A stretch of 12,766 nt of DNA from a virus (Duplodnaviria > Heunggongvirae > Uroviricota > Caudoviricetes), in the IMG/VR virus record IMGVR_UViG_3300007747_000033. The stretch is one strand, 5' to 3'. Below are positions 1,389 through 12,766 of the stretch, piece after piece. The position numbers and the translations under genes are program-made. Positions within the stretch are counted from its first letter, which is position 1. Each line of letters opens with the position of its first letter. The notes under the pieces are model-generated. The model saw nothing but the letters and a program-made list of their open reading frames with translations. It had not been told where the DNA came from and did not search any database.

Positions 1389-2483
1389 ATGAGCAGACCG
1401 GACTGGGGGGCGTTGCAGCAGGAGTATATTGCTGAATACACCCGCTCCGGTATATCTCCGGTGGCATGGTGTGAAGCAAGGGGACTGAATTACGCAACAG
1501 CCCGTCGTTACATCAAAAAAACTCCGAAAAATGCGCAGACAGAAATGTGCAAAACTGCGCAAAAAAGTGCGCAGAAAAAATCTGCGCAGACTGCACAAAA
1601 GCGGAACGAAAAATCTCAGGAAAAAAAGCCAGTATTCGATGCGGGCCTGAATGAGGGCGACGCGGAGGAATTTTCGTTCTGTCCCGATGAATTCGGCATT
1701 TCTGACCAGCAGGCTAAGTTTGCGATGCTTGTTGCTCAGGGTAAAAAGCCGACAGAGGCGTACCGACTAGCCGGTTATGAGGGGCAAGGTGCGACAGCTA
1801 ATAGCAACGCCAGTCGTATGCTTAGAAATGCCAGGGTTTTTCGCGCTATCAGCTACTTCCGCAATCAGTACCAGAAACGCTATACCGCAGACCTGGATTT
1901 ACTAGTGAGTCAGTTGATGGCCATTGTCCTGGCCGACCCCAATCAGCTTGCACAATTTCGCCGTGTTAACTGCCGTTATTGCTGGGGCGAGAATCATCTC
2001 TACCAGTGGCGCGATATAGCAGAATTCGACAAGGCAGCGGCGCAGGCTTCCAGAGATGGCAAACCCGAACCGGAATATGGAGGCCTCGGCTTTGTTGATA
2101 ACGCCATACCCAATCCGGACTGCCCGAAGTGCTGCGGTGAGGGAACGGGACAGCTTTATATGGCTGATACCACTCTGCTTGATGGGGATGCGCGGCAATT
2201 ATATGCAGGGGCAAAATTCGGAAAATTCGGCGTTGAGATCCTGCTGGAGGATAAGGCTGCCGCCCGGCGTGAATTGTTGCGTTTGCTTTCTGCTGGCGGG
2301 GCTTTATGTGCAGATAAGCGGCTACAGGAACTGGAAATTGAACGGCGCAGAATGGAAAACCAGAAGCTGCGCAAAGAGATCGAAACGGTGGAAGATAATG
2401 AACATCCCCAGCCTGTGGCGATCAATATTAATGTGGTTGATGCCAGAGTAAGGAGTGATGAAGATGATCTCTCCGACGCTTAA
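1389..2483 (+). CDS. Terminase small subunit (Terminase_2-like core) with N-terminal extension, low-complexity linker and Cys-rich insert
   Basis: ATG 1389 after AGGA (1378-1381). Core region ISDQQAKFAMLVAQGKKPTEAYRLAGYEGQGATANSNASRMLRNARVFRAI fits the small-terminase HTH consensus (L..KQ..F..EY....NAT.AA..AGYS...A.....LL..P.V...I). Lies immediately upstream of the large terminase. Also has CRYC...CPKCC and a C-terminal coiled-coil-like region. Confidence 0.7.
   Translation: MSRPDWGALQQEYIAEYTRSGISPVAWCEARGLNYATARRYIKKTPKNAQTEMCKTAQKSAQKKSAQTAQKRNEKSQEKKPVFDAGLNEGDAEEFSFCPDEFGISDQQAKFAMLVAQGKKPTEAYRLAGYEGQGATANSNASRMLRNARVFRAISYFRNQYQKRYTADLDLLVSQLMAIVLADPNQLAQFRRVNCRYCWGENHLYQWRDIAEFDKAAAQASRDGKPEPEYGGLGFVDNAIPNPDCPKCCGEGTGQLYMADTTLLDGDARQLYAGAKFGKFGVEILLEDKAAARRELLRLLSAGGALCADKRLQELEIERRRMENQKLRKEIETVEDNEHPQPVAININVVDARVRSDEDDLSDA
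1532..1597. repeat. Cluster of six TG(C/T)(G/A)CA hexamers (four exact TGCGCA) at 9-15 bp spacing inside the small-terminase gene
   Basis: TGCGCA at 1532, 1556, 1568, 1583; TGTGCA at 1546; TGCACA at 1592; separated by A-tracts. Coincides with the (S/T)AQK peptide repeats of the encoded linker. Confidence 0.6.
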
Positions 2484-7139: not shown

Positions 7140-7237
7140 CACATTTGTCAGCTTCCGGATGGGAGCTGGTGTCAGGGCTGGATAGCTCATTACTCCATCT
7201 ATTCACAATTACGCAAATTTTTAAGGAATATTTAATT

Positions 7238-8377
7238 ATGGCTGGAAATACCCTGACCGGGTTGATCCCGACTATTTATACCGCCCTGGATGTTGTATCC
7301 CGTGAGCAGGTAGGTTTTATCCCTGCGGTAGCAAAAAACGCAAAAGCTGACGCCGCAGCAAAAGATCAGACGGTAACCGCGCCAGTTGCGCCTGAGGCGA
7401 AAACCGAAGATATCGTACCGGGGCCGTCAGCTCCGAATACCGGTGATCAAAATATTGGCACTGTTGATGTAAAAATTACTAAATCCAAAATGGCACCGGT
7501 TAAATGGAATGGTGAAGAACAACTGGCTCTTGGCCCTTCAGGGACTTACAACACCATTCTGGCTGATCAGTTCAAGCAGGCTTTTCGCGCCCTTGCAAAC
7601 GAGGTTGAGGCTGATCTTGGTGCGTTGTATTTCGGTGCTTCCCGCGCCGTGGGAACCGCAGGGACAACGCCGTTTGGTGTTAAAGATGATCTTTCTGATG
7701 CTGCTCTGGCTCGTCAGGTTCTGGAGGATAACGGCGCACCGACAACCGATCTGCAGATGGTGCTTGGCTCCACTGCCATTGCTAATTTGCGCGGAAAACA
7801 GTCTGTATTGTTTAAAGTGAATGAATCCGGCACTGAACAGCTACTGCGTGAGGGCGTGTTGGGGCGTCTGGAGGGATTCAATATTCACAGTTCGGCAGGT
7901 GTGAAACGAGCGCCAAAGGTTGCTGCAACTGGTTATCTCGTGAATGGAGAGAAAAAAGAAGGCGATGTTCTTATTTCCATTGATACTGGTTCGGGGTGTA
8001 TTTCTGCAGGTCAGATTGTTACGTTCGCTGGTGATCCGAATCAGTATGTTGTGGCAGCAGCGACCAGCAATCTGATTACTCTTGCAGCGCCCGGACTGCG
8101 TCAGGATCTGGCCGATGATACTGCCATCACAGTTGTTGGGGCCTTTACTGCAAATATGGCGTTTGATCGCAACGCGTTTCTGCTGGCATCCCGTACTCCG
8201 GCAATGCCGGAAGGTGGCGATAATGCTGATGATGTAATGAATGTTACGGACCCGATTTCAGGGATTACGTTCCAGATTGCACTGTATCGTCAGTATCGCC
8301 AGGTGCGCTATGAAGTTGGACTGGCATGGGGTGTTTCATCAGTGAAGCCGGCACATGGTTGTCTGATTCTTGGTTAA
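7238..8377 (+). CDS. Major capsid (coat) protein
   Basis: The ORF track opens at 7145; preferred start is ATG 7238, 10 nt after AAGGA (7223-7227). N-terminus MAGNTLTGLIPTIYTALDVVSREQVGFIP resembles coat proteins of the P22-coat-like family (from memory). Size ~380 aa; followed by a terminator. Confidence 0.75.
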   Translation: MAGNTLTGLIPTIYTALDVVSREQVGFIPAVAKNAKADAAAKDQTVTAPVAPEAKTEDIVPGPSAPNTGDQNIGTVDVKITKSKMAPVKWNGEEQLALGPSGTYNTILADQFKQAFRALANEVEADLGALYFGASRAVGTAGTTPFGVKDDLSDAALARQVLEDNGAPTTDLQMVLGSTAIANLRGKQSVLFKVNESGTEQLLREGVLGRLEGFNIHSSAGVKRAPKVAATGYLVNGEKKEGDVLISIDTGSGCISAGQIVTFAGDPNQYVVAAATSNLITLAAPGLRQDLADDTAITVVGAFTANMAFDRNAFLLASRTPAMPEGGDNADDVMNVTDPISGITFQIALYRQYRQVRYEVGLAWGVSSVKPAHGCLILG

Positions 8378-8599: not shown

Positions 8600-8995
8600 A
8601 TGATCACTTACGTGACCTGTGATGACGTTGATAATGCGTTTGGGAACGCCTGGACGAGTGAGAACGCTAAAAATAAAGCTGTTTTAATGGCTAATGCCTG
8701 GCTTAATGGCTTCAACCTGAAAATTAACCCATCCCGTATTCCGGAAGAGGTAAAACTTGCGGGAGCATATGCAGCCAGAATTGCCTCATTCGGTAAGTTG
8801 TTTCAGCAGAAAAATGATTCTGGCGTTGTTATCAGTAAAGCCGTGTCGGCTGACGGGGTCAGTGTATCGAAATCATTTTCTGAGTTGCCAGCAAACAGCA
8901 CTGCATTGCTTGAACCCGATTTACAGCTTGCGATAGCACTGCTGAAACCGTACGGACTTAGTCGCTCACAAGTCAGGGTTGTGAGGGGGGGATAA
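8600..8995 (+). CDS. Putative head-tail connector / adaptor protein (gp6-like)
   Basis: ATG 8600 after AGGAG. 131 aa, first gene after the capsid module. N-terminus (ITYVTCDDVDNAF...AVLMANAWL) resembles connector-protein N-termini. Assigned mainly by synteny. Confidence 0.45.
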   Translation: MITYVTCDDVDNAFGNAWTSENAKNKAVLMANAWLNGFNLKINPSRIPEEVKLAGAYAARIASFGKLFQQKNDSGVVISKAVSADGVSVSKSFSELPANSTALLEPDLQLAIALLKPYGLSRSQVRVVRGG

Positions 8996-9378
8996 TGGGG
9001 CTTCGTGAAGAGATTCAGTCAGAGGTTGCCGCTGCTTTTGATGAGGATTTAGCGGACGCCGTGAGTGATTTTTCTGGTTCTTACGTTACGCACCGGCACT
9101 GGGATCCTGTGACGGAAACTGGCGGCGAATCCACCGCAATCTATACCGGGCGAGGCGTGTTGACACGTTATAAGCTGGGCAGAATTGATGGGATTAATAT
9201 TTTGCATGGTGACCTTAAATTAACCGCTCTGGTATGCGAGGTTACGGATAAACCAGCTGTCGACCATATTATTGAGATTTATGATCCTGTATCAAGGCAG
9301 TTACAACGATACGAGGTAATTACAGCAAGTGTAGATCCTTCCGCATCAGTTTACTCTATCCAGTTAAGGAGAGCGTAA
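8995..9378 (+). CDS. Hypothetical phage structural protein (head completion / head-tail joining by position)
   Basis: ATG 8995 overlaps the upstream TAA by 1 nt (TAATG) and follows GAGGGGGGG. 127 aa; no recognisable motif. Confidence 0.5.
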   Translation: MGLREEIQSEVAAAFDEDLADAVSDFSGSYVTHRHWDPVTETGGESTAIYTGRGVLTRYKLGRIDGINILHGDLKLTALVCEVTDKPAVDHIIEIYDPVSRQLQRYEVITASVDPSASVYSIQLRRA

Positions 9379-9759
9379 ATGGCAAAGGCATGGGATATAG
9401 AACCGTCAATATTTGCCGGGATGATTGAGGAAGATGTAGGGCTGAAGATTCGCTACATCGCTATTCAGATTCTTACTGCTATTGATATTGCTGCTCCGGT
9501 TGATACCGGACGTTTCAGAAATAACAACCTGGTGTCGTTACAGCATCCCGATTTTGGTATATCTGATAACGTGGATCCGAACGGTACGATTGCTGTTCAG
9601 CGTGGGATCGGGGTTATTTCGAAAGCTGCAAATTACGGGGTTATTTATATCCAGAATAACCTTCCTTATGCAGAGGCTCTTGAAAACGGTCATTCACAAC
9701 AAGCGCCAACTGGCGTGTATGCCAACGCTTTTCATGGTGTTTTACAGGCTTACAAATGA
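9379..9759 (+). CDS. Head-tail joining / tail component protein, HK97 gp10-like
   Basis: ATG 9379 immediately after the upstream TAA, with AAGGAG at 9367-9372. Contains VDTGRFRNN, resembling the DTGxLRxS signature I associate with the HK97 gp10 family. Confidence 0.55.
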   Translation: MAKAWDIEPSIFAGMIEEDVGLKIRYIAIQILTAIDIAAPVDTGRFRNNNLVSLQHPDFGISDNVDPNGTIAVQRGIGVISKAANYGVIYIQNNLPYAEALENGHSQQAPTGVYANAFHGVLQAYK

Positions 9760-10148
9760 AGTTTACTGAAATCAGAAATACGGTTATTTCCAGAATGACG
9801 GCACAGACGATTATTGATGGAAAAGACGTATTGTATCCGAACGGGCCAACGTTCGATCCTTCCGGTAAGTTAATCTGGGCGCGGTTAAGTAATATTCCCG
9901 GGCAAGCTGGAGTTAATGAAATTGGCGCGGGGCCGGTTGTTTATCGCACGGGGATAATCATTATTCAGTTATTTGTCCCCGCAGGTTCTGGTTCAAAACT
10001 CATTACTGAGACAGCCGATAAATTGCGGGAACTGTTTGAGTTTCAGGATGACGATCGTCTCAGTTACCAGGCTGTTTCCTCAATAGCCGTCGGCGAAAAG
10101 AATGGCTGGTTCCAGCTTAATCTTCAAATTCCATATCGCGCGCTCTAG
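9756..10148 (+). CDS. Putative tail completion / tail terminator protein
   Basis: ATGA start-stop overlap with the upstream gene (9756-9759). 130 aa, immediately upstream of the major tail gene. Assigned by synteny. Confidence 0.5.
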   Translation: MKFTEIRNTVISRMTAQTIIDGKDVLYPNGPTFDPSGKLIWARLSNIPGQAGVNEIGAGPVVYRTGIIIIQLFVPAGSGSKLITETADKLRELFEFQDDDRLSYQAVSSIAVGEKNGWFQLNLQIPYRAL

Positions 10149-10174: not shown

Positions 10175-11137
10175 GTGAGTTCAGGTGCAAAGGTTATCTC
10201 GGCATTTATCCGGGAGACAGTTGCAGGCACTACGCCAGCAAGTGGTGACTGGAGTTTATTAAAACGCACAAGCTGGGGAGTAAAACCCACCCAGAATAAA
10301 GGCGAAAATAATGAGATTGGTGGCTCCCGGATGGCTCAGGGGGCGACGCCTGGCACTGTGGATGTCGGCGGTGATGTTGGTACCAAATTTCGCTGGGGTC
10401 AACATGATGATTTTCTTGCATCCTGTTTCGGCGCGGAATGGTCAGGCGATTCTCTGACAATGGGGAATGAGCGAATAACATTTTCTCTGGCGACCTATGC
10501 GTCCGATGTCGGAATTGCCTCTGTCGTCAGAGGAGCGCAGGTTGGCTCATGGAAAATGCAGATCCCTAACGACGGCGATATTACAGCGACCGTAACCTTT
10601 GCCGGGCTGGGCTGGGAATCAAAGGCCGATGATACGAATTTTATCAAAGGCGAACCTGTGGATAGTGCAGGAAAGTTACGCTATTCGTTTAAGGCGGTTT
10701 CAGCAGTAAGCCTGAATGGTGTTGCCGGAGGTAACGGTTTTTGTATCGACAGTTTTGATATTCAGTTCGATAACAAACTCCAGACACAGCGTTGTATCGG
10801 GACCGGCTCGCCTTATGCAGGAGCAAATATTCCGACTACTTTTACACCGTCCGGTACGGTGACGCTTTCATGGTCTAAAGCCGCGTGGGAAATCTGGAGT
10901 AAAACACTGACTGGAGAAACAGTTCCGTTCAGCTTCACGCTTTCGAATGGAGAGGGGGCATACACTTTCAGTTTCCCGAAGGTTCAGGTGTCAGGTGAAT
11001 GGCCTGATGGGGGTAATACTGACATTATCCAGGTTCAATTGAGCATTACCGCAGCAGATGAAGCACCTACGATAACCAGAAAAAAATGCTCCCCGACTGC
11101 CGTGATCGCAAAAGCCAGTGCTGATGCGATTAGTTGA
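10175..11137 (+). CDS. Major tail (tube) protein
   Basis: GTG 10175, 5 nt after AGGAGG (10164-10169). 320 aa, Gly/Thr/Ser-rich beta-type composition. Directly upstream of the chaperone/frameshift pair and tape-measure gene. No sheath gene present, so siphovirus-type. Confidence 0.6.
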   Translation: MSSGAKVISAFIRETVAGTTPASGDWSLLKRTSWGVKPTQNKGENNEIGGSRMAQGATPGTVDVGGDVGTKFRWGQHDDFLASCFGAEWSGDSLTMGNERITFSLATYASDVGIASVVRGAQVGSWKMQIPNDGDITATVTFAGLGWESKADDTNFIKGEPVDSAGKLRYSFKAVSAVSLNGVAGGNGFCIDSFDIQFDNKLQTQRCIGTGSPYAGANIPTTFTPSGTVTLSWSKAAWEIWSKTLTGETVPFSFTLSNGEGAYTFSFPKVQVSGEWPDGGNTDIIQVQLSITAADEAPTITRKKCSPTAVIAKASADAIS

Positions 11138-11149
11138 TTTTCCGTTATT

Positions 11150-11176
11150 CCCCCTGTGGTACTGCACTACAGGGGG
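11150..11176 (+). promoter_or_regulatory. Stable hairpin between major tail and chaperone genes, no U-tract
   Basis: CCCCCTGTGGT (11150-11160), ACTGC loop, ACTACAGGGGG (11166-11176): 11-bp stem with one G-U pair. Followed by ACGCATTGA, not a T-run, so not a canonical intrinsic terminator. Confidence 0.4.
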
Positions 11177-11185
11177 ACGCATTGA

Positions 11186-11647
11186 ATGAGGTTATGGATG
11201 TTTATTCTTAATCAGAAAATTATCATCGGTGGAGAACGCTGGTTTACGCCAATGAAGGACTTAAAACCTATAGACGGGTTAAAACTGTTGGTGGCAAGCA
11301 GCGATAACGATCAGTATCGCTCCCGTAATGCATTAATCCGTCGTCACATTGAGAAAATGGATGCCAGTTTGCACGTCGGAACGAAGGAGTTTGATATTTC
11401 AAAGGTTTCCGAGGTAGATTCTGTTGATGATTTACTCATTGATAATGCTGCTCGTTATCTGCTGAAAGACTGGAAAGGGGTTGGTGAACTGGTTAATGGT
11501 GCTGAGGTTGCACTGGAATATACGCCAGAACGAGGGATCGCGCTGCTTAAGCAGAATCCAGAGTTGTACTGGCAGATCCTTGCAGAAGCAGCCAGCATCG
11601 CCCAGGGTAAAGAGCAGCAGAAGCAGGATACGATAAAAAAGCCATAG
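11186..11647 (+). CDS. Tail assembly chaperone (lambda G-like)
   Basis: 153-aa ORF between major tail and tape-measure genes; ends 4 nt after an A AAA AAG slippery heptamer; -1 frame stays open for a further 104 codons. Confidence 0.6.
   Translation: MRLWMFILNQKIIIGGERWFTPMKDLKPIDGLKLLVASSDNDQYRSRNALIRRHIEKMDASLHVGTKEFDISKVSEVDSVDDLLIDNAARYLLKDWKGVGELVNGAEVALEYTPERGIALLKQNPELYWQILAEAASIAQGKEQQKQDTIKKP
11635..11641 (+). promoter_or_regulatory. Programmed -1 ribosomal frameshift slippery site A_AAA_AAG
   Basis: Zero-frame codons ATA AAA AAG (11633-11641) give the classic heptamer at 11635-11641, followed by CCA TAG. The -1 frame is open from 11611 to the stop at 11953-11955. Confidence 0.6.
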
Positions 11648-11955
11648 CCGCCCAGCGGTGGTTATCGGAGTTCGGGGGAGAAAGGGGGGAAAAGGCAAGA
11701 TGGAAGCGAGAAAAACTCAGGTTGCCACCGATACCGGAACCAGAAATAGACCCGGTGCTTAAGGAATTGTTGTACGCCTATTCGGTAATATCCCGTGCCC
11801 GACGTTATGCTGGAATGACCGGGGTGCCTTTGCCTTTATCTCTGACAGAGATAAATGAATATTTAGCCACTCATCCGGTATTGATTGAGCGCGATGAGTT
11901 TGAAGCAGTGATCTTTGCACTGGATGACCAGTATTTTCAGGAGCAGTGTGTGTAG
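11635..11955 (+). CDS. -1 frame extension of the tail assembly chaperone (lambda GT-like fusion, ~256 aa with the upstream ORF)
   Basis: Track ORF 11722..11955 (TTG start) is in the -1 frame relative to 11186..11647, and that frame has no stop back to 11611. Conserved G/GT arrangement upstream of tape-measure genes. Confidence 0.5.
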   Translation, partial: KKAIAAQRWLSEFGGERGEKARWKREKLRLPPIPEPEIDPVLKELLYAYSVISRARRYAGMTGVPLPLSLTEINEYLATHPVLIERDEFEAVIFALDDQYFQEQCV

Positions 11956-12078
11956 TTGTTAATTACGTACACTCTGTTACAGAGATGTGATGGTGTCTTT
12001 AATTAAATCGATGATGCTCCTGGAGAAAAGCATTGCGTGGCCTCGTAATCGCTATATCTACTATTATGTCGCCTGAAA

Positions 12079-12098
12079 CCCACTTCGGTGGGCTTTTT
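12079..12098 (+). terminator. Candidate rho-independent terminator upstream of the tape-measure gene
   Basis: CCCAC (12079-12083), TTCG loop, GTGGG (12088-12092), then CTTTTTGTTG. Short 5-bp stem, so probably weak or partial. Confidence 0.5.
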
Positions 12099-12118
12099 GT
12101 TGTCTGGAGTTTTAATAA

Positions 12119-12706
12119 ATGGCAGAGCAAACCTCGCGTCTCGCAATAATTATTGATAGCACTGGAGCAAAAAATAATGCTGACAATCTGACCTCCTCAT
12201 TAGTCAAAATGACGCAGGCCGGGGAAACTGCTGCAAATAGCGCAGGGAAAGTGACTAAGGCAACAGAAGATGAGAAGAACGCGCTCGCAAAATTAAAAGC
12301 AGCTATTGATCCAGTTGGTGCCGCAATTGATACTGTCGGTCGACGCTATTCTGAATTAAAGAAATTTTTCGATAAAGGGATTATTGATAAAGAAGAATAT
12401 GAATTTCTTGTCCGTAAACTTAATGAAACCACAGAGGAATTGAGCGGGGTTGCGCAAGCGCAGAGAGAAGCCGAGAAGGCCGGAAAACTTGCTGCCGCCC
12501 AGCAGGAAGCGCAGACTCAGGCCTTTCAAAGAATGCTGGACAAGATCGACCCTCTGGCTGCGGCGCTAAGAAATCTTGAACAACAGCAGGATGAACTTAA
12601 TGCTGCGTTTGCATCCGGGAAAATAAATGGTTCTCAGTTTGAGAATTATAGCCGAAAAATACAGGAAACACGGCGAGTGAACCGCCCCGGGAATCCTGGA
12701 GACTAA
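12119..12706 (+). CDS. Tail tape-measure protein, N-terminal fragment truncated by IS insertion (native sequence ends at 12677; last 9-10 codons and stop are IS-derived)
   Basis: ATG 12119 after GGAG. Product is helical, Ala/Glu/Lys/Gln-rich and coiled-coil-like, as in tape-measure N-termini, and sits directly downstream of the chaperone/frameshift pair. The ORF runs into the IS end at 12678 and stops inside it (…[11 protein letters not shown]). Confidence 0.55.
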
Positions 12707-12766
12707 ACTTCCTGAGAAAGAGGTAAACAGGATGACTAAAAATACTCGTTTTTCCCCTGAAGTCCG
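12678..12766 (+). mobile_element. Terminal 89 bp of an IS3-family insertion sequence (left end with start of orfA); the element continues beyond the right window edge
   Basis: Begins TGAACCGCCCCGGG; exact inverted copy of 2-90; contains AGAGGTAAACAGG followed by ATG at 12732. Confidence 0.75.
12732..12766 (+). CDS. IS3-family transposase OrfA, first 11 codons only (runs off the window)
   Basis: ATG ACT AAA AAT ACT CGT TTT TCC CCT GAA GTC = MTKNTRFSPEV. Confidence 0.6.
   Translation, partial: MTKNTRFSPEV

What the first reader, a model, noticed from the sequence alone, without database searches (positions are those of the whole stretch)
11611..11955. Tail assembly chaperone with A_AAA_AAG -1 frameshift giving a GT-like fusion
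The chaperone ORF contains the classic slippery heptamer at 11635-11641, with a zero-frame stop two codons later. The -1 frame is open for 104 further codons, predicting a ~256-aa fusion. This matches the conserved G/GT frameshift between major tail and tape-measure genes in long-tailed phages. A purine-rich G-tract (11673-11698) downstream might act as a stimulatory element. An annotation pipeline would call 11722..11955 as a separate TTG-start gene, which would miss the fusion.
Basis: partly seen in the sequence, partly recalled or inferred. Interest (0 to 1): 0.45.

Follow-up and report, generated by a model that had tools for sequence, protein, structure and literature searches.

The report
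Phage tail-chaperone programmed frameshift site
This is an ordinary, unannotated example of the well-known -1 ribosomal frameshift that lets long-tailed phages make a short and a long tail-assembly chaperone from one gene, here in a Rac-type E. coli prophage (gene ydaY) whose tape-measure gene is broken by an insertion sequence.

Summary
A_AAA_AAG (11635-11641) is in X_XXY_YYZ phase near the end of the chaperone ORF (ydaY; 11198-11647). The zero-frame stop is at 11645-11647. The -1 frame then stays open for 104 codons, to 11955.

- The ORF pair lies between the tail-tube gene and the tape-measure gene of a Rac-like prophage.
- In 57 distinct relatives from about 12 genera, 53 carry A_AAA_AAG or G_GGA_AAG at the homologous site. 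The other four keep A_AAG.
- The zero-frame stop moves between 0 and 35 codons downstream, yet the -1 ORF stays about 90-119 codons long in 54 of 57.
- The 27 codons after the slip site contain no start codon. They are under purifying selection only in the -1 frame (pN/pS 0.25, against 1.27 and 1.28 in the other frames).
- The fusion matches the tail-assembly-chaperone profile phrog_313 end to end.
- A distant homologue, Acinetobacter phage TRS1, already has the frameshift annotated.

Two side claims need correcting. The G-tract is not a conserved RNA element, and no downstream structure is conserved. The true start is ATG 11198, giving a 252-aa fusion.

GenBank and RefSeq annotate only ydaY, plus an inconsistent small ORF. 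This is a new member of a known kind, of low interest. No product was measured.

The parts
10175..11137 (+). Tail tube (major tail) gene. It is the upstream neighbour that defines the G/GT position.
   Evidence: phrog_290, E 2.5e-111. RefSeq names the identical gene 'phage tail tube protein'.
11198..11647 (+). Zero-frame chaperone ORF (G equivalent; YdaY), 149 aa. An alternative ATG lies at 11186.
11635..11641 (+). Slippery heptamer A_AAA_AAG, in X_XXY_YYZ phase.
   Evidence: The homologous site is A_AAA_AAG in 47 and G_GGA_AAG in 6 of 57 distinct relatives; the other 4 keep A_AAG. The slip-site Lys is an invariant column when the window fusion is aligned with the TRS1 and Pseudomonas phage fusions.
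11645..11647 (+). Zero-frame stop TAG that ends G.
   Evidence: In relatives its position varies from 0 to 35 codons after the heptamer.
11641..11721 (+). Linker of the T part, read in the -1 frame: 27 codons, AIAAQRWLSEFGGERGEKARWKREKLR. It can be translated only after the shift.
   Evidence: There is no ATG, GTG or TTG in this frame between the stop at 11608-11610 and 11722. pN/pS is 0.25 in the -1 frame, against 1.27 and 1.28 in the other frames, over 19 enterobacterial sequences.
11722..11955 (+). C-terminal T domain in the -1 frame (77 codons plus stop). Pipelines call all or part of this as a separate small gene.
   Evidence: phrog_1189, E 1.7e-36. Pfam Phage_TAC_18 scores 20.3 bits, below its cut-off of 27. 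pN/pS is 0.38 in this frame only. Annotated starts differ between records.
11642..11668 (+). Local hairpin directly 3' of the heptamer: an 11-bp stem with two G-U pairs and one bulge, loop CAGC. It is a candidate stimulator only.
   Evidence: -14.2 kcal/mol, but z = -1.05 and 24 of 200 shuffles fold as well. It is weakened in L082 and absent in other genera.
12119..12677 (+). Tape-measure gene, N-terminal about 186 codons. It is the downstream neighbour and the presumed client of the chaperone. An IS629-like element cuts it at 12678.
   Evidence: phrog_3827 and phrog_24. The intact homologue is 3234 nt in strain 7/2. Homology to the intact gene stops at 12677, and the remainder matches IS629.

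Best explanation
The two ORFs 11198-11647 and 11641-11955 are the G and T parts of the tail assembly chaperone of a Rac-type siphovirus prophage.

Most ribosomes translate G (YdaY, 149 aa) and stop at TAG 11645. A minority slip back one base when tRNA-Lys occupies both the P site (AAA) and the A site (AAG) on A_AAA_AAG at 11635-11641. Both tRNAs re-pair with AAA AAA. Those ribosomes continue in the -1 frame to 11955 and make a 252-aa G-T fusion (...DTIKK-AIAAQRW...).

By analogy with lambda gpG/gpGT, the G part would coat the tape-measure protein and the T part would recruit the tube protein. The slip frequency would set the G:GT ratio.

Shown here: the sequence anatomy, the conservation, the frame-specific selection and the family placement. 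Inferred: that the shift occurs, how often it occurs, and the binding partners.

In this particular window the tape-measure gene is interrupted by an IS element. The signal is therefore intact, but the tail pathway it serves is probably dead.
For: 1. Anatomy. The heptamer is in phase, 2 codons before the stop. The overlap is 12 codons and the -1 ORF is 104 codons.
2. Gene order. Head, adaptor, head closure, Neck1, tail terminator, tube, G, T, tape measure.
3. Family. G matches phrog_313 'Tail assembly chaperone' at E 3.8e-46. The fusion matches positions 20-246 of the 258-position profile in one stretch, and the score rises from 158.8 to 174.4 bits. The best PDB fold match is the HK97 tail assembly chaperone. 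BFVD hits include several tape-measure or tail assembly chaperones.
4. Site conservation. Of 57 distinct nucleotide versions, 47 have A_AAA_AAG and 6 have G_GGA_AAG. They come from Escherichia, Shigella, Citrobacter, Raoultella, Siccibacter, Pectobacterium, Serratia, Pantoea, Rosenbergiella, Providencia and others, plus Erwinia, Pseudomonas and Acinetobacter phages. The switch between the two motifs changes three bases together (GTA AAA to GTG GGA), keeps X_XXY_YYZ and changes the amino acid. The zero-frame stop moves (+0, +1, +7, +20, +25, +26 or +35 codons), while the -1 ORF stays intact in 54 of 57.
5. Motif strength. The two motifs are equally and highly shift-prone in E. coli. Each gives about 0.3% without a stimulator, about 4% with the IS911 stimulator and about 40% with the IS3 stimulator (PMC4066793 Table S3).
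6. Selection. The 27 codons after the slip site show pN/pS 0.25 in the -1 frame and 1.27/1.28 in the other two.
7. No own start. In 21 representatives there is no ATG, GTG or TTG in the -1 frame before T residue 26. In four lineages the first is at residue 59, and in TRS1 at residue 77.
8. Precedent. The distant homologue Acinetobacter phage TRS1 has the joined, frameshifted CDS annotated (TRS1_19). Its slip site G_GGA_AAG aligns with ours.
Against: - No protein or ribosome data exist for this locus, so the efficiency is unknown.
- No conserved stimulator was found. The RNAalifold consensus is -2.1 kcal/mol with no covariation. There is no Rfam match. The local hairpin is not significant. The upstream AGGA is only 6 nt from the site and is absent in some relatives.
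- Without a stimulator, A_AAA_AAG gave only about 0.3% in reporter assays.
- Four relatives have non-canonical P-site parts: G_GGG_AAG, G_GAA_AAG (two versions) and C_GCA_AAG.
- The Pfam hit for T is below the gathering score. Neither the Pfam copy searched nor NCBIfam matched G, although the protein database tags its homologues with a newer Pfam entry, PF27119, that this copy lacks.
Confidence: 0.9

Rival explanations
1. The downstream ORF is a separate small gene, translated from its own start (TTG 11722, GTG 11755, TTG 11770 or GTG 11824), as the databases annotate it. There would be no frameshift.
For: GenBank and RefSeq annotate separate ORFs of 43-66 aa. TTG 11770 has an SD-like AAGGA 4 nt upstream, so weak internal initiation in the E. 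coli clade cannot be excluded.
Against: The annotated starts disagree with each other, and many RefSeq genomes call no gene at all. None of these start codons is conserved: TTG at residue 28 occurs only in the E. coli clade and L015, and in several genera the first possible start is residue 59 or 77. The 27 start-less codons upstream are under stronger purifying selection in this frame than the domain itself. Gene callers recover only fragments of 60-138 aa, with at most 89% coverage.
Confidence: 0.04
2. The arrangement is a decayed gene. A single G-T ORF was broken by a 1-nt insertion in the A-run of a cryptic prophage, and the heptamer is a mutational scar.
For: The prophage is defective here, with an IS element in the tape-measure gene. 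Homopolymer runs are indel-prone, and database variants with indels or a fusing deletion exist (P0001, P0002, L068).
Against: The same two-frame architecture occurs in 54 of 57 distinct versions across about 12 genera and in isolated phages (Klebsiella, Erwinia, Pseudomonas, Acinetobacter). Both frames are under purifying selection. G_GGA_AAG lineages have no A-run to expand. The few single-frame fusions are close variants of the E. coli sequence (92% identity for P0001) and lack part of G.
Confidence: 0.02
3. The fusion is made by transcriptional slippage: RNA polymerase drops one A in the A6 run. Ribosomal slippage would not be involved.
For: The window has six consecutive A residues (11635-11640). 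This analysis cannot separate the two mechanisms by product alone.
Against: Six relatives have G_GGA_AAG, with runs of only three bases, at the same place. That motif supports tandem tRNA slippage but not polymerase slippage. Phase conservation (X_XXY_YYZ) is a ribosomal requirement, not a transcriptional one. My own knowledge, not tested here: efficient slippage by E. coli RNA polymerase usually needs runs of about 9 or more.
Confidence: 0.03
4. The heptamer is incidental, like many A_AAA_AAG sites in E. coli genes, and the T ORF is not expressed.
For: The 7-mer is as frequent as expected in the window. Another in-phase copy at 1622 looks incidental. Unselected sites are known in E. coli (PMC5009743).
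Against: An unexpressed ORF would not keep pN/pS at 0.25-0.38 over 104 codons across genera. Nor would the site switch only between two equally slippery motifs.
Confidence: 0.01

Closest known systems
Bacteriophage lambda gpG/gpGT (programmed -1 frameshift on G_GGA_AAG; Levin 1993 and Xu 2004, 2013, 2014, as summarised in PMC5009743)
   Same: Same position, between the major tail and tape-measure genes. Same layout: a short zero-frame product plus a -1 extension of about 100 codons with no start of its own. Same class of slippery heptamer; six relatives use lambda's exact G_GGA_AAG. Neither has a conserved strong stimulator.
   Different: No detectable sequence similarity was needed or found. 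G here falls in phrog_313, and T is not the lambda Phage_tail_T type (no such Pfam hit). This lineage uses A_AAA_AAG. The head genes are P22-like rather than lambda-like. The 30:1 ratio and the binding partners are known for lambda and only inferred here.
Acinetobacter phage vB_AbaS_TRS1, TRS1_18/TRS1_19 (annotated tail assembly chaperone with a joined, frameshifted CDS, NC_031098)
   Same: It is a true homologue. tblastn finds 39% identity over the T domain, and the full fusions align at 25% identity with the slip-site Lys in the same column. The gene order is the same.
   Different: It uses G_GGA_AAG. The zero-frame stop is 26 codons after the site. The linker sequence is not conserved with the enterobacterial one.
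ECs1801-type tail assembly chaperone of E. coli O157 lambdoid prophages (cluster A_AAA_AAG_25, '[true]', in Sharma et al. 2014, PMC4066793)
   Same: Same host species, same heptamer A_AAA_AAG at the 3' end of the chaperone gene (A_AAA_AAG TAG), and same neighbours.
   Different: It is an unrelated protein family: 124 aa, with no BLASTP alignment to YdaY at E <= 100. ydaY does not appear in that paper's tables.
E. coli dnaX gamma/tau frameshift (A_AAA_AAG)
   Same: Identical slippery heptamer and the same tRNA-Lys (mnm5s2U) re-pairing logic (PMC5009743).
   Different: dnaX has an upstream SD and a strong downstream hairpin, shifts at about 50%, and makes a shorter product. Here no conserved stimulator is found, the product is longer, and the expected level is low.

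Membership tests
G/GT-type tail assembly chaperone pair with programmed -1 frameshift (long-tailed phages) | The ORF pair lies between the major tail (tube) gene and the tape-measure gene | tested here: met
   Tube gene 10175-11137 (phrog_290). Tape-measure gene from 12119 (phrog_3827 and phrog_24). RefSeq names in the identical locus agree.
G/GT-type tail assembly chaperone pair with programmed -1 frameshift (long-tailed phages) | The second ORF overlaps the 3' end of the first in the -1 frame and has no initiation signal of its own | tested here: met
   The overlap is 11611-11647. There is no ATG, GTG or TTG before 11722 in the window, and none before T residue 26 in 21 representatives. No start is conserved.
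G/GT-type tail assembly chaperone pair with programmed -1 frameshift (long-tailed phages) | A canonical X_XXY_YYZ slippery heptamer, in phase, inside the overlap | tested here: met
   A_AAA_AAG at 11635-11641. It is among the most shift-prone motifs in E. coli (PMC4066793 Table S3).
G/GT-type tail assembly chaperone pair with programmed -1 frameshift (long-tailed phages) | The slip site and the two-frame layout are conserved in diverged relatives, with coding selection in the -1 frame downstream | tested here: met
   53 of 57 distinct versions are canonical and 54 of 57 have an intact -1 ORF. pN/pS is 0.25 for the linker and 0.38 for the domain, in the -1 frame only.
G/GT-type tail assembly chaperone pair with programmed -1 frameshift (long-tailed phages) | Both products are made, with GT as the minor species (a few percent) | not testable with these tools
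   This needs a reporter assay, western blot, mass spectrometry or ribosome profiling.
G/GT-type tail assembly chaperone pair with programmed -1 frameshift (long-tailed phages) | G binds the tape-measure protein, T binds the tube protein, and neither is in the virion | not testable with these tools
   Inferred only from lambda (PMC5009743).
PHROG phrog_313 (tail assembly chaperone) | A significant full-length profile match | tested here: met
   G alone: E 3.8e-46 over profile positions 15-149. The fusion: E 6.4e-51 over profile positions 20-246 of 258.
Tail assembly chaperone fold (HK97 chaperone, PDB 2ob9) | Structural similarity of the G domain to a solved chaperone | tested here: inconclusive
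Pfam PF23812 Phage_TAC_18 | A score at or above the gathering threshold (27 bits) | tested here: not met
   The T part scores 20.3 bits (E 6e-4) over profile positions 12-78 of 79. This is a resemblance, not membership by Pfam's rule.
dnaX/IS3-type stimulated -1 frameshift cassette | A conserved upstream SD 10-14 nt away and/or a conserved downstream hairpin or pseudoknot | tested here: not met
   The RNAalifold consensus is -2.1 kcal/mol with 0 covarying pairs. There is no Rfam hit. The local hairpin has z -1.05. The AGGA is 6 nt upstream and is not conserved.

The most novel reading that the evidence does not exclude
This chaperone family may keep a useful frameshift level without any RNA stimulator. 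It may rely mainly on single-tRNA slippage at A_AAG. Three observations point that way:
- AAG is kept in all 57 versions.
- The P-site part is degenerate in four versions (C_GCA_AAG, G_GAA_AAG twice, G_GGG_AAG).
- The 3' dinucleotide is CC in 50 of 57 versions.
The conserved nascent peptide or the 3' context could be doing the work that hairpins do elsewhere. This would make the family a natural series for dissecting stimulator-free -1 frameshifting. One confound: the same bases also encode the conserved Ala/Val that follows the junction.
Probability: 0.15. Interest if true: 0.35.

Novelty: new member of a known kind. Interest (0 to 1): 0.18.

Why it matters
The main value is for annotation.
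- The ~1-kb segment spanning these genes (11100-12140) is present in 1075 of 5426 complete E. coli genomes, including the K-12 Rac remnant.
- There, ydaY carries no functional name and the T part is either missed or called with arbitrary starts.
- Naming YdaY as the Rac-type tail assembly chaperone, and adding the ribosomal-slippage join, would correct thousands of records and give the 'hypothetical' small ORF a function.

It adds nothing new to the mechanism of frameshifting or of tail assembly.

Tried and rejected
- Downstream RNA stimulator. Single-sequence folds of 11642-11730 and 11642-11680 gave z-scores of -0.30 and -1.05. Per-relative folds differ from one another. RNAalifold on 19 sequences gave only a 4-bp consensus with no covariation. 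I rejected it as a conserved element and kept the E. coli-clade hairpin only as a possibility.
- G-tract as a stimulator. Its nucleotides vary at third positions while the peptide FGGExGEKA is kept. Rejected.
- Rfam search of 11400-12200 at E <= 1: no match.
- Pfam (the copy searched) and NCBIfam for G: no family. PDB sequence search with the G profile: only noise.
- Literature. 'ydaY' with 'frameshift' returned two irrelevant papers. 'ydaY' alone returned nothing on function. 'tail assembly chaperone' + 'frameshift' + 'Rac prophage' returned none. Gurvich et al. 2003 (A_AAA_AAG sites of K-12) could not be opened, so I cannot say whether ydaY was assayed there.
- Sharma et al. 2014. Their chaperone cluster (ECs1801) turned out to be an unrelated family.
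- Source genome. I looked for the exact tape-measure/IS junction in complete E. coli genomes. Only one two-piece match turned up (NCTC9699), so the source genome was not identified.

Full report
**What is in the sequence**

The + strand ORF that ends at 11647 reads ...GAT ACG ATA AAA AAG CCA TAG. The heptamer A AAA AAG occupies 11635-11641, and its first A is the third base of a codon. That is the X_XXY_YYZ phase needed for tandem -1 slippage. One sense codon and then TAG (11645-11647) follow.

The -1 frame is closed by TAA at 11608-11610. It is then open from 11611 to the TAG at 11953-11955. The two frames therefore overlap by only 12 codons, and the -1 frame runs 104 codons past the slip site, with the junction ...DTIKK/AIAAQRW....

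The heptamer string alone means little. It occurs 5 times in the window against 4.4 expected. The 15 main ORFs hold 18 in-phase X_XXY_YYZ heptamers, including a second in-phase A_AAA_AAG at 1622 whose -1 frame closes after 8 codons. The site at 11635 is unusual because it lies two codons from the end of its ORF and opens a long ORF that has no start codon.

**Where it sits**

The window is the structural module of a Rac-type prophage of E. coli. An identical locus in strain 7/2 is annotated in this order: terminase small and large subunits, portal-like protein, minor head protein, P22-type major capsid protein, several small proteins, tail terminator, tail tube protein, ydaY, a 66-aa hypothetical protein, tape-measure protein, then lambda-like tip genes.

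PHROG profiles give the same order in the window: major head 7145-8377, adaptor 8600-8995, head closure 8995-9378, Neck1 9379-9759, tail terminator 9756-10148, tube 10175-11137, and tape measure from 12119. So the ORF pair sits exactly where long-tailed phages keep their chaperone genes.

The ~1-kb segment 11100-12140 spanning these genes is found in 1075 of 5426 complete E. coli genomes. In K-12 strains it survives as the Rac remnant ydaY-(small ORF)-ynaA.

**What the proteins are**

- The zero-frame product matches phrog_313, 'Tail assembly chaperone', at E 3.8e-46.
- The conceptual fusion matches positions 20-246 of that 258-position profile in a single stretch. The score rises from 158.8 to 174.4 bits. 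The profile was evidently built partly from full-length frameshift products.
- The -1 part alone matches phrog_1189 (E 1.7e-36). It also matches Pfam Phage_TAC_18, but below threshold: 20.3 bits against a cut-off of 27.
- The Pfam copy searched and NCBIfam have nothing for the G part. A PDB sequence search is empty.

**Comparative test of the frameshift**

I fetched 19 loci from species-representative genomes, 80 from viral contigs, and annotated phage records. The homologous site could be placed in 107 loci, the window among them. These collapse to 57 distinct nucleotide versions.

- The site is A_AAA_AAG in 47 versions and G_GGA_AAG in 6. The latter are Raoultella, Serratia, Pantoea, two Rosenbergiella and Acinetobacter phage TRS1.
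- The other four versions are G_GGG_AAG (Pectobacterium), G_GAA_AAG (two Pseudomonas phages) and C_GCA_AAG (Erwinia phage Gungnir39). All 57 keep A_AAG.
- Changing from one canonical motif to the other needs three coordinated base changes (GTA AAA to GTG GGA) and replaces Lys with Gly. Selection is therefore acting on slipperiness, not on the peptide.
- In E. coli reporters the two motifs behave almost identically. A_AAA_AAG gave 0.29%, 4.3% and 39%; G_GGA_AAG gave 0.28%, 3.8% and 43%. The three values are for no stimulator, the IS911 stimulator and the IS3 stimulator (PMC4066793 Table S3).
- The zero-frame stop moves between 0 and 35 codons after the site, while the -1 ORF remains 88-119 codons long in 54 of 57 versions.

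**Is the stretch after the slip site really translated in the -1 frame?**

I made a codon alignment of 19 enterobacterial sequences.

| Segment | pN/pS in -1 frame | pN/pS in the other two frames |
|---|---|---|
| 27 codons, 11641-11721 | 0.25 | 1.27 and 1.28 |
| Remaining T domain | 0.38 | 1.20 and 1.53 |

Third-position variability is twice that of positions 1 and 2. The conserved peptide is A[LI]EAQKWL[SN]EFGGExGEKAxWxREKLxLPxxPEPEID.

In 21 representatives, the -1 frame holds no ATG, GTG or TTG from its upstream stop to T residue 25. The TTG at 11722 exists only in the E. coli clade and one Serratia sequence. In four lineages the first possible start is the Met at residue 59, and in TRS1 it is residue 77. 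A segment that is selected as protein but cannot be initiated must be reached from the G frame.

Gene callers agree indirectly. The T query recovers only 27 protein clusters, of 60-138 aa and at most 89% coverage. The fusion query recovered 142 proteins, mostly G-length.

Annotated starts for the small ORF differ between records. They fall at 11755 (66 aa), 11770 (61 aa) and 11824 (43 aa), and many RefSeq genomes call no gene there at all.

**Precedent inside the family**

Acinetobacter phage TRS1 (NC_031098) carries a joined CDS, TRS1_19, 'putative tail assembly chaperone', over the same pair of frames. tblastn finds 39% identity to ours over its T domain. When the full fusions of the window, TRS1 and Pseudomonas phage Aurca01 are aligned, the slip-site lysine falls in one invariant column.

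A second, unrelated E. coli prophage chaperone uses the same heptamer. ECs1801 of Sakai Sp9 is listed as a true case by Sharma et al. 2014, and it has no BLASTP similarity to YdaY. I found no paper that links ydaY to frameshifting. I could not open Gurvich et al. 2003, which surveyed A_AAA_AAG sites in K-12.

**Stimulators**

That tract encodes FGGERGEKA in the -1 frame. Relatives keep the peptide but not the G runs.

In the window a hairpin forms directly after the heptamer (11642-11668, -14.2 kcal/mol). However, 24 of 200 shuffles fold as well. The hairpin is weakened by two non-compensating changes in one E. coli lineage (L082), and other genera fold differently.

RNAalifold over 19 sequences gives a 4-bp consensus at -2.1 kcal/mol with no covariation. 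Rfam has no match. An AGGA lies 6 nt upstream, but it is part of conserved Gln-Asp/Glu codons and is missing in some relatives.

The dinucleotide after the heptamer is CC in 50 of 57 versions. CC was reported as the most shift-prone 3' context for A_AAA_AAG (PMC5009743). The same bases, however, encode the conserved Ala after the junction, so this cannot be separated from coding.

In sum, the slippery site is conserved and no separate stimulator is. That resembles lambda G-T, where the level is low, with a G:GT ratio of about 30:1 (PMC5009743).

**Rival readings**

- Independent initiation of the small ORF fails on the lack of a conserved start and on selection upstream of all candidate starts. 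Weak internal initiation at TTG 11770, which has an AAGGA 4 nt upstream, cannot be excluded for the E. coli clade.
- A decayed single gene fails on the conservation of the two-frame layout in isolated phages and across genera. The few single-frame fusions in databases are close variants of the E. coli sequence (P0001: 240 aa, 92% identity) with a deletion that removes part of G.
- Transcriptional slippage fails because G_GGA_AAG lineages have no homopolymer run.
- A chance heptamer with a silent ORF fails on the pN/pS values.

**Corrections and context**

The chaperone start is ATG 11198, not 11186. It has GAGG 6 nt upstream. All relatives begin at the equivalent Met, and three of them have a stop codon just before it. 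The fusion is therefore 252 aa.

In this window the tape-measure gene is cut at 12678 by the left end of an IS629-like element. The tail pathway is probably dead in this host, even though the frameshift cassette is intact.

**Verdict**

It is a new, unannotated member of a textbook class, the G/GT tail-chaperone frameshift. It has practical value for annotating ydaY loci and little conceptual novelty.

Noticed in passing
window 12678-12766: The left end of an IS629-like (IS3-family) element, TGAACCGCCCCGGGAATCCTGGAGACTAAAC..., with the start of its orfA, interrupts the tape-measure gene after about 186 codons. Homology to the intact 3234-nt gene stops at 12677. The mechanical ORF 12119..12706 reads into the IS.
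   Followed up: partly
window 12079-12102: A terminator-like hairpin, CCCACTTCGGTGGG (UUCG loop), followed by CTTTTTGTTG. It lies in the 163-nt gap between the T stop (11955) and the tape-measure start (12119), inside what should be one late operon.
   Followed up: no
window about 11151-11177: A strong inverted repeat (CCCCCTGTgG...CtACAGGGGG) between the tail-tube stop and the chaperone start. Relatives have a GC hairpin plus a T-run at the same place (for example GCGGGCTTTTTT). It may attenuate expression after the abundant tube gene.
   Followed up: no
window 1622-1628: A second in-phase A_AAA_AAG, inside the terminase small-subunit ORF (1389..2483). The -1 frame closes after 8 codons, so a slip would give a truncated product of about 89 aa. 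It is probably incidental. Conservation was not checked.
   Followed up: partly
window 8986-8992: An in-phase G_GGG_GGA one codon before the end of ORF 8600..8995, followed by a 128-codon -1 ORF. That ORF is simply the next gene (8995..9378), with its own ATG in an ATGA overlap, and the motif is a poor shifter. It served as a control, not a candidate.
   Followed up: yes
window 11673-11698, and related entries P0001-P0004, P0011, L054, L056, L068: Database relatives show indels in the G runs, or a deletion that joins G and T in one frame (P0001: 240 aa; L068: the T domain is moved into the G frame). These are either sequencing errors in homopolymers or real decay of cryptic prophages.
   Followed up: partly
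L002 (E. coli K-12 BW2952, NC_012759, 1315704-1316371): The K-12 Rac remnant keeps the slip site and an intact T ORF. Its ydaY, however, is truncated at the N-terminus by the Rac internal deletion (119 aa, abutting ynaK), and the tape-measure gene (ynaA) is a fragment. RefSeq calls a 43-aa ORF starting at the equivalent of GTG 11824.
   Followed up: partly
L014, L103/L106, L104: Four relatives have non-canonical heptamers at the homologous site: G_GGG_AAG in Pectobacterium, G_GAA_AAG in the Pseudomonas phages phiPSA1 and Aurca01, and C_GCA_AAG followed directly by TAA in Erwinia phage Gungnir39. All have an intact T ORF. This suggests that A_AAG slippage alone, or another mechanism, may suffice there.
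   Followed up: no
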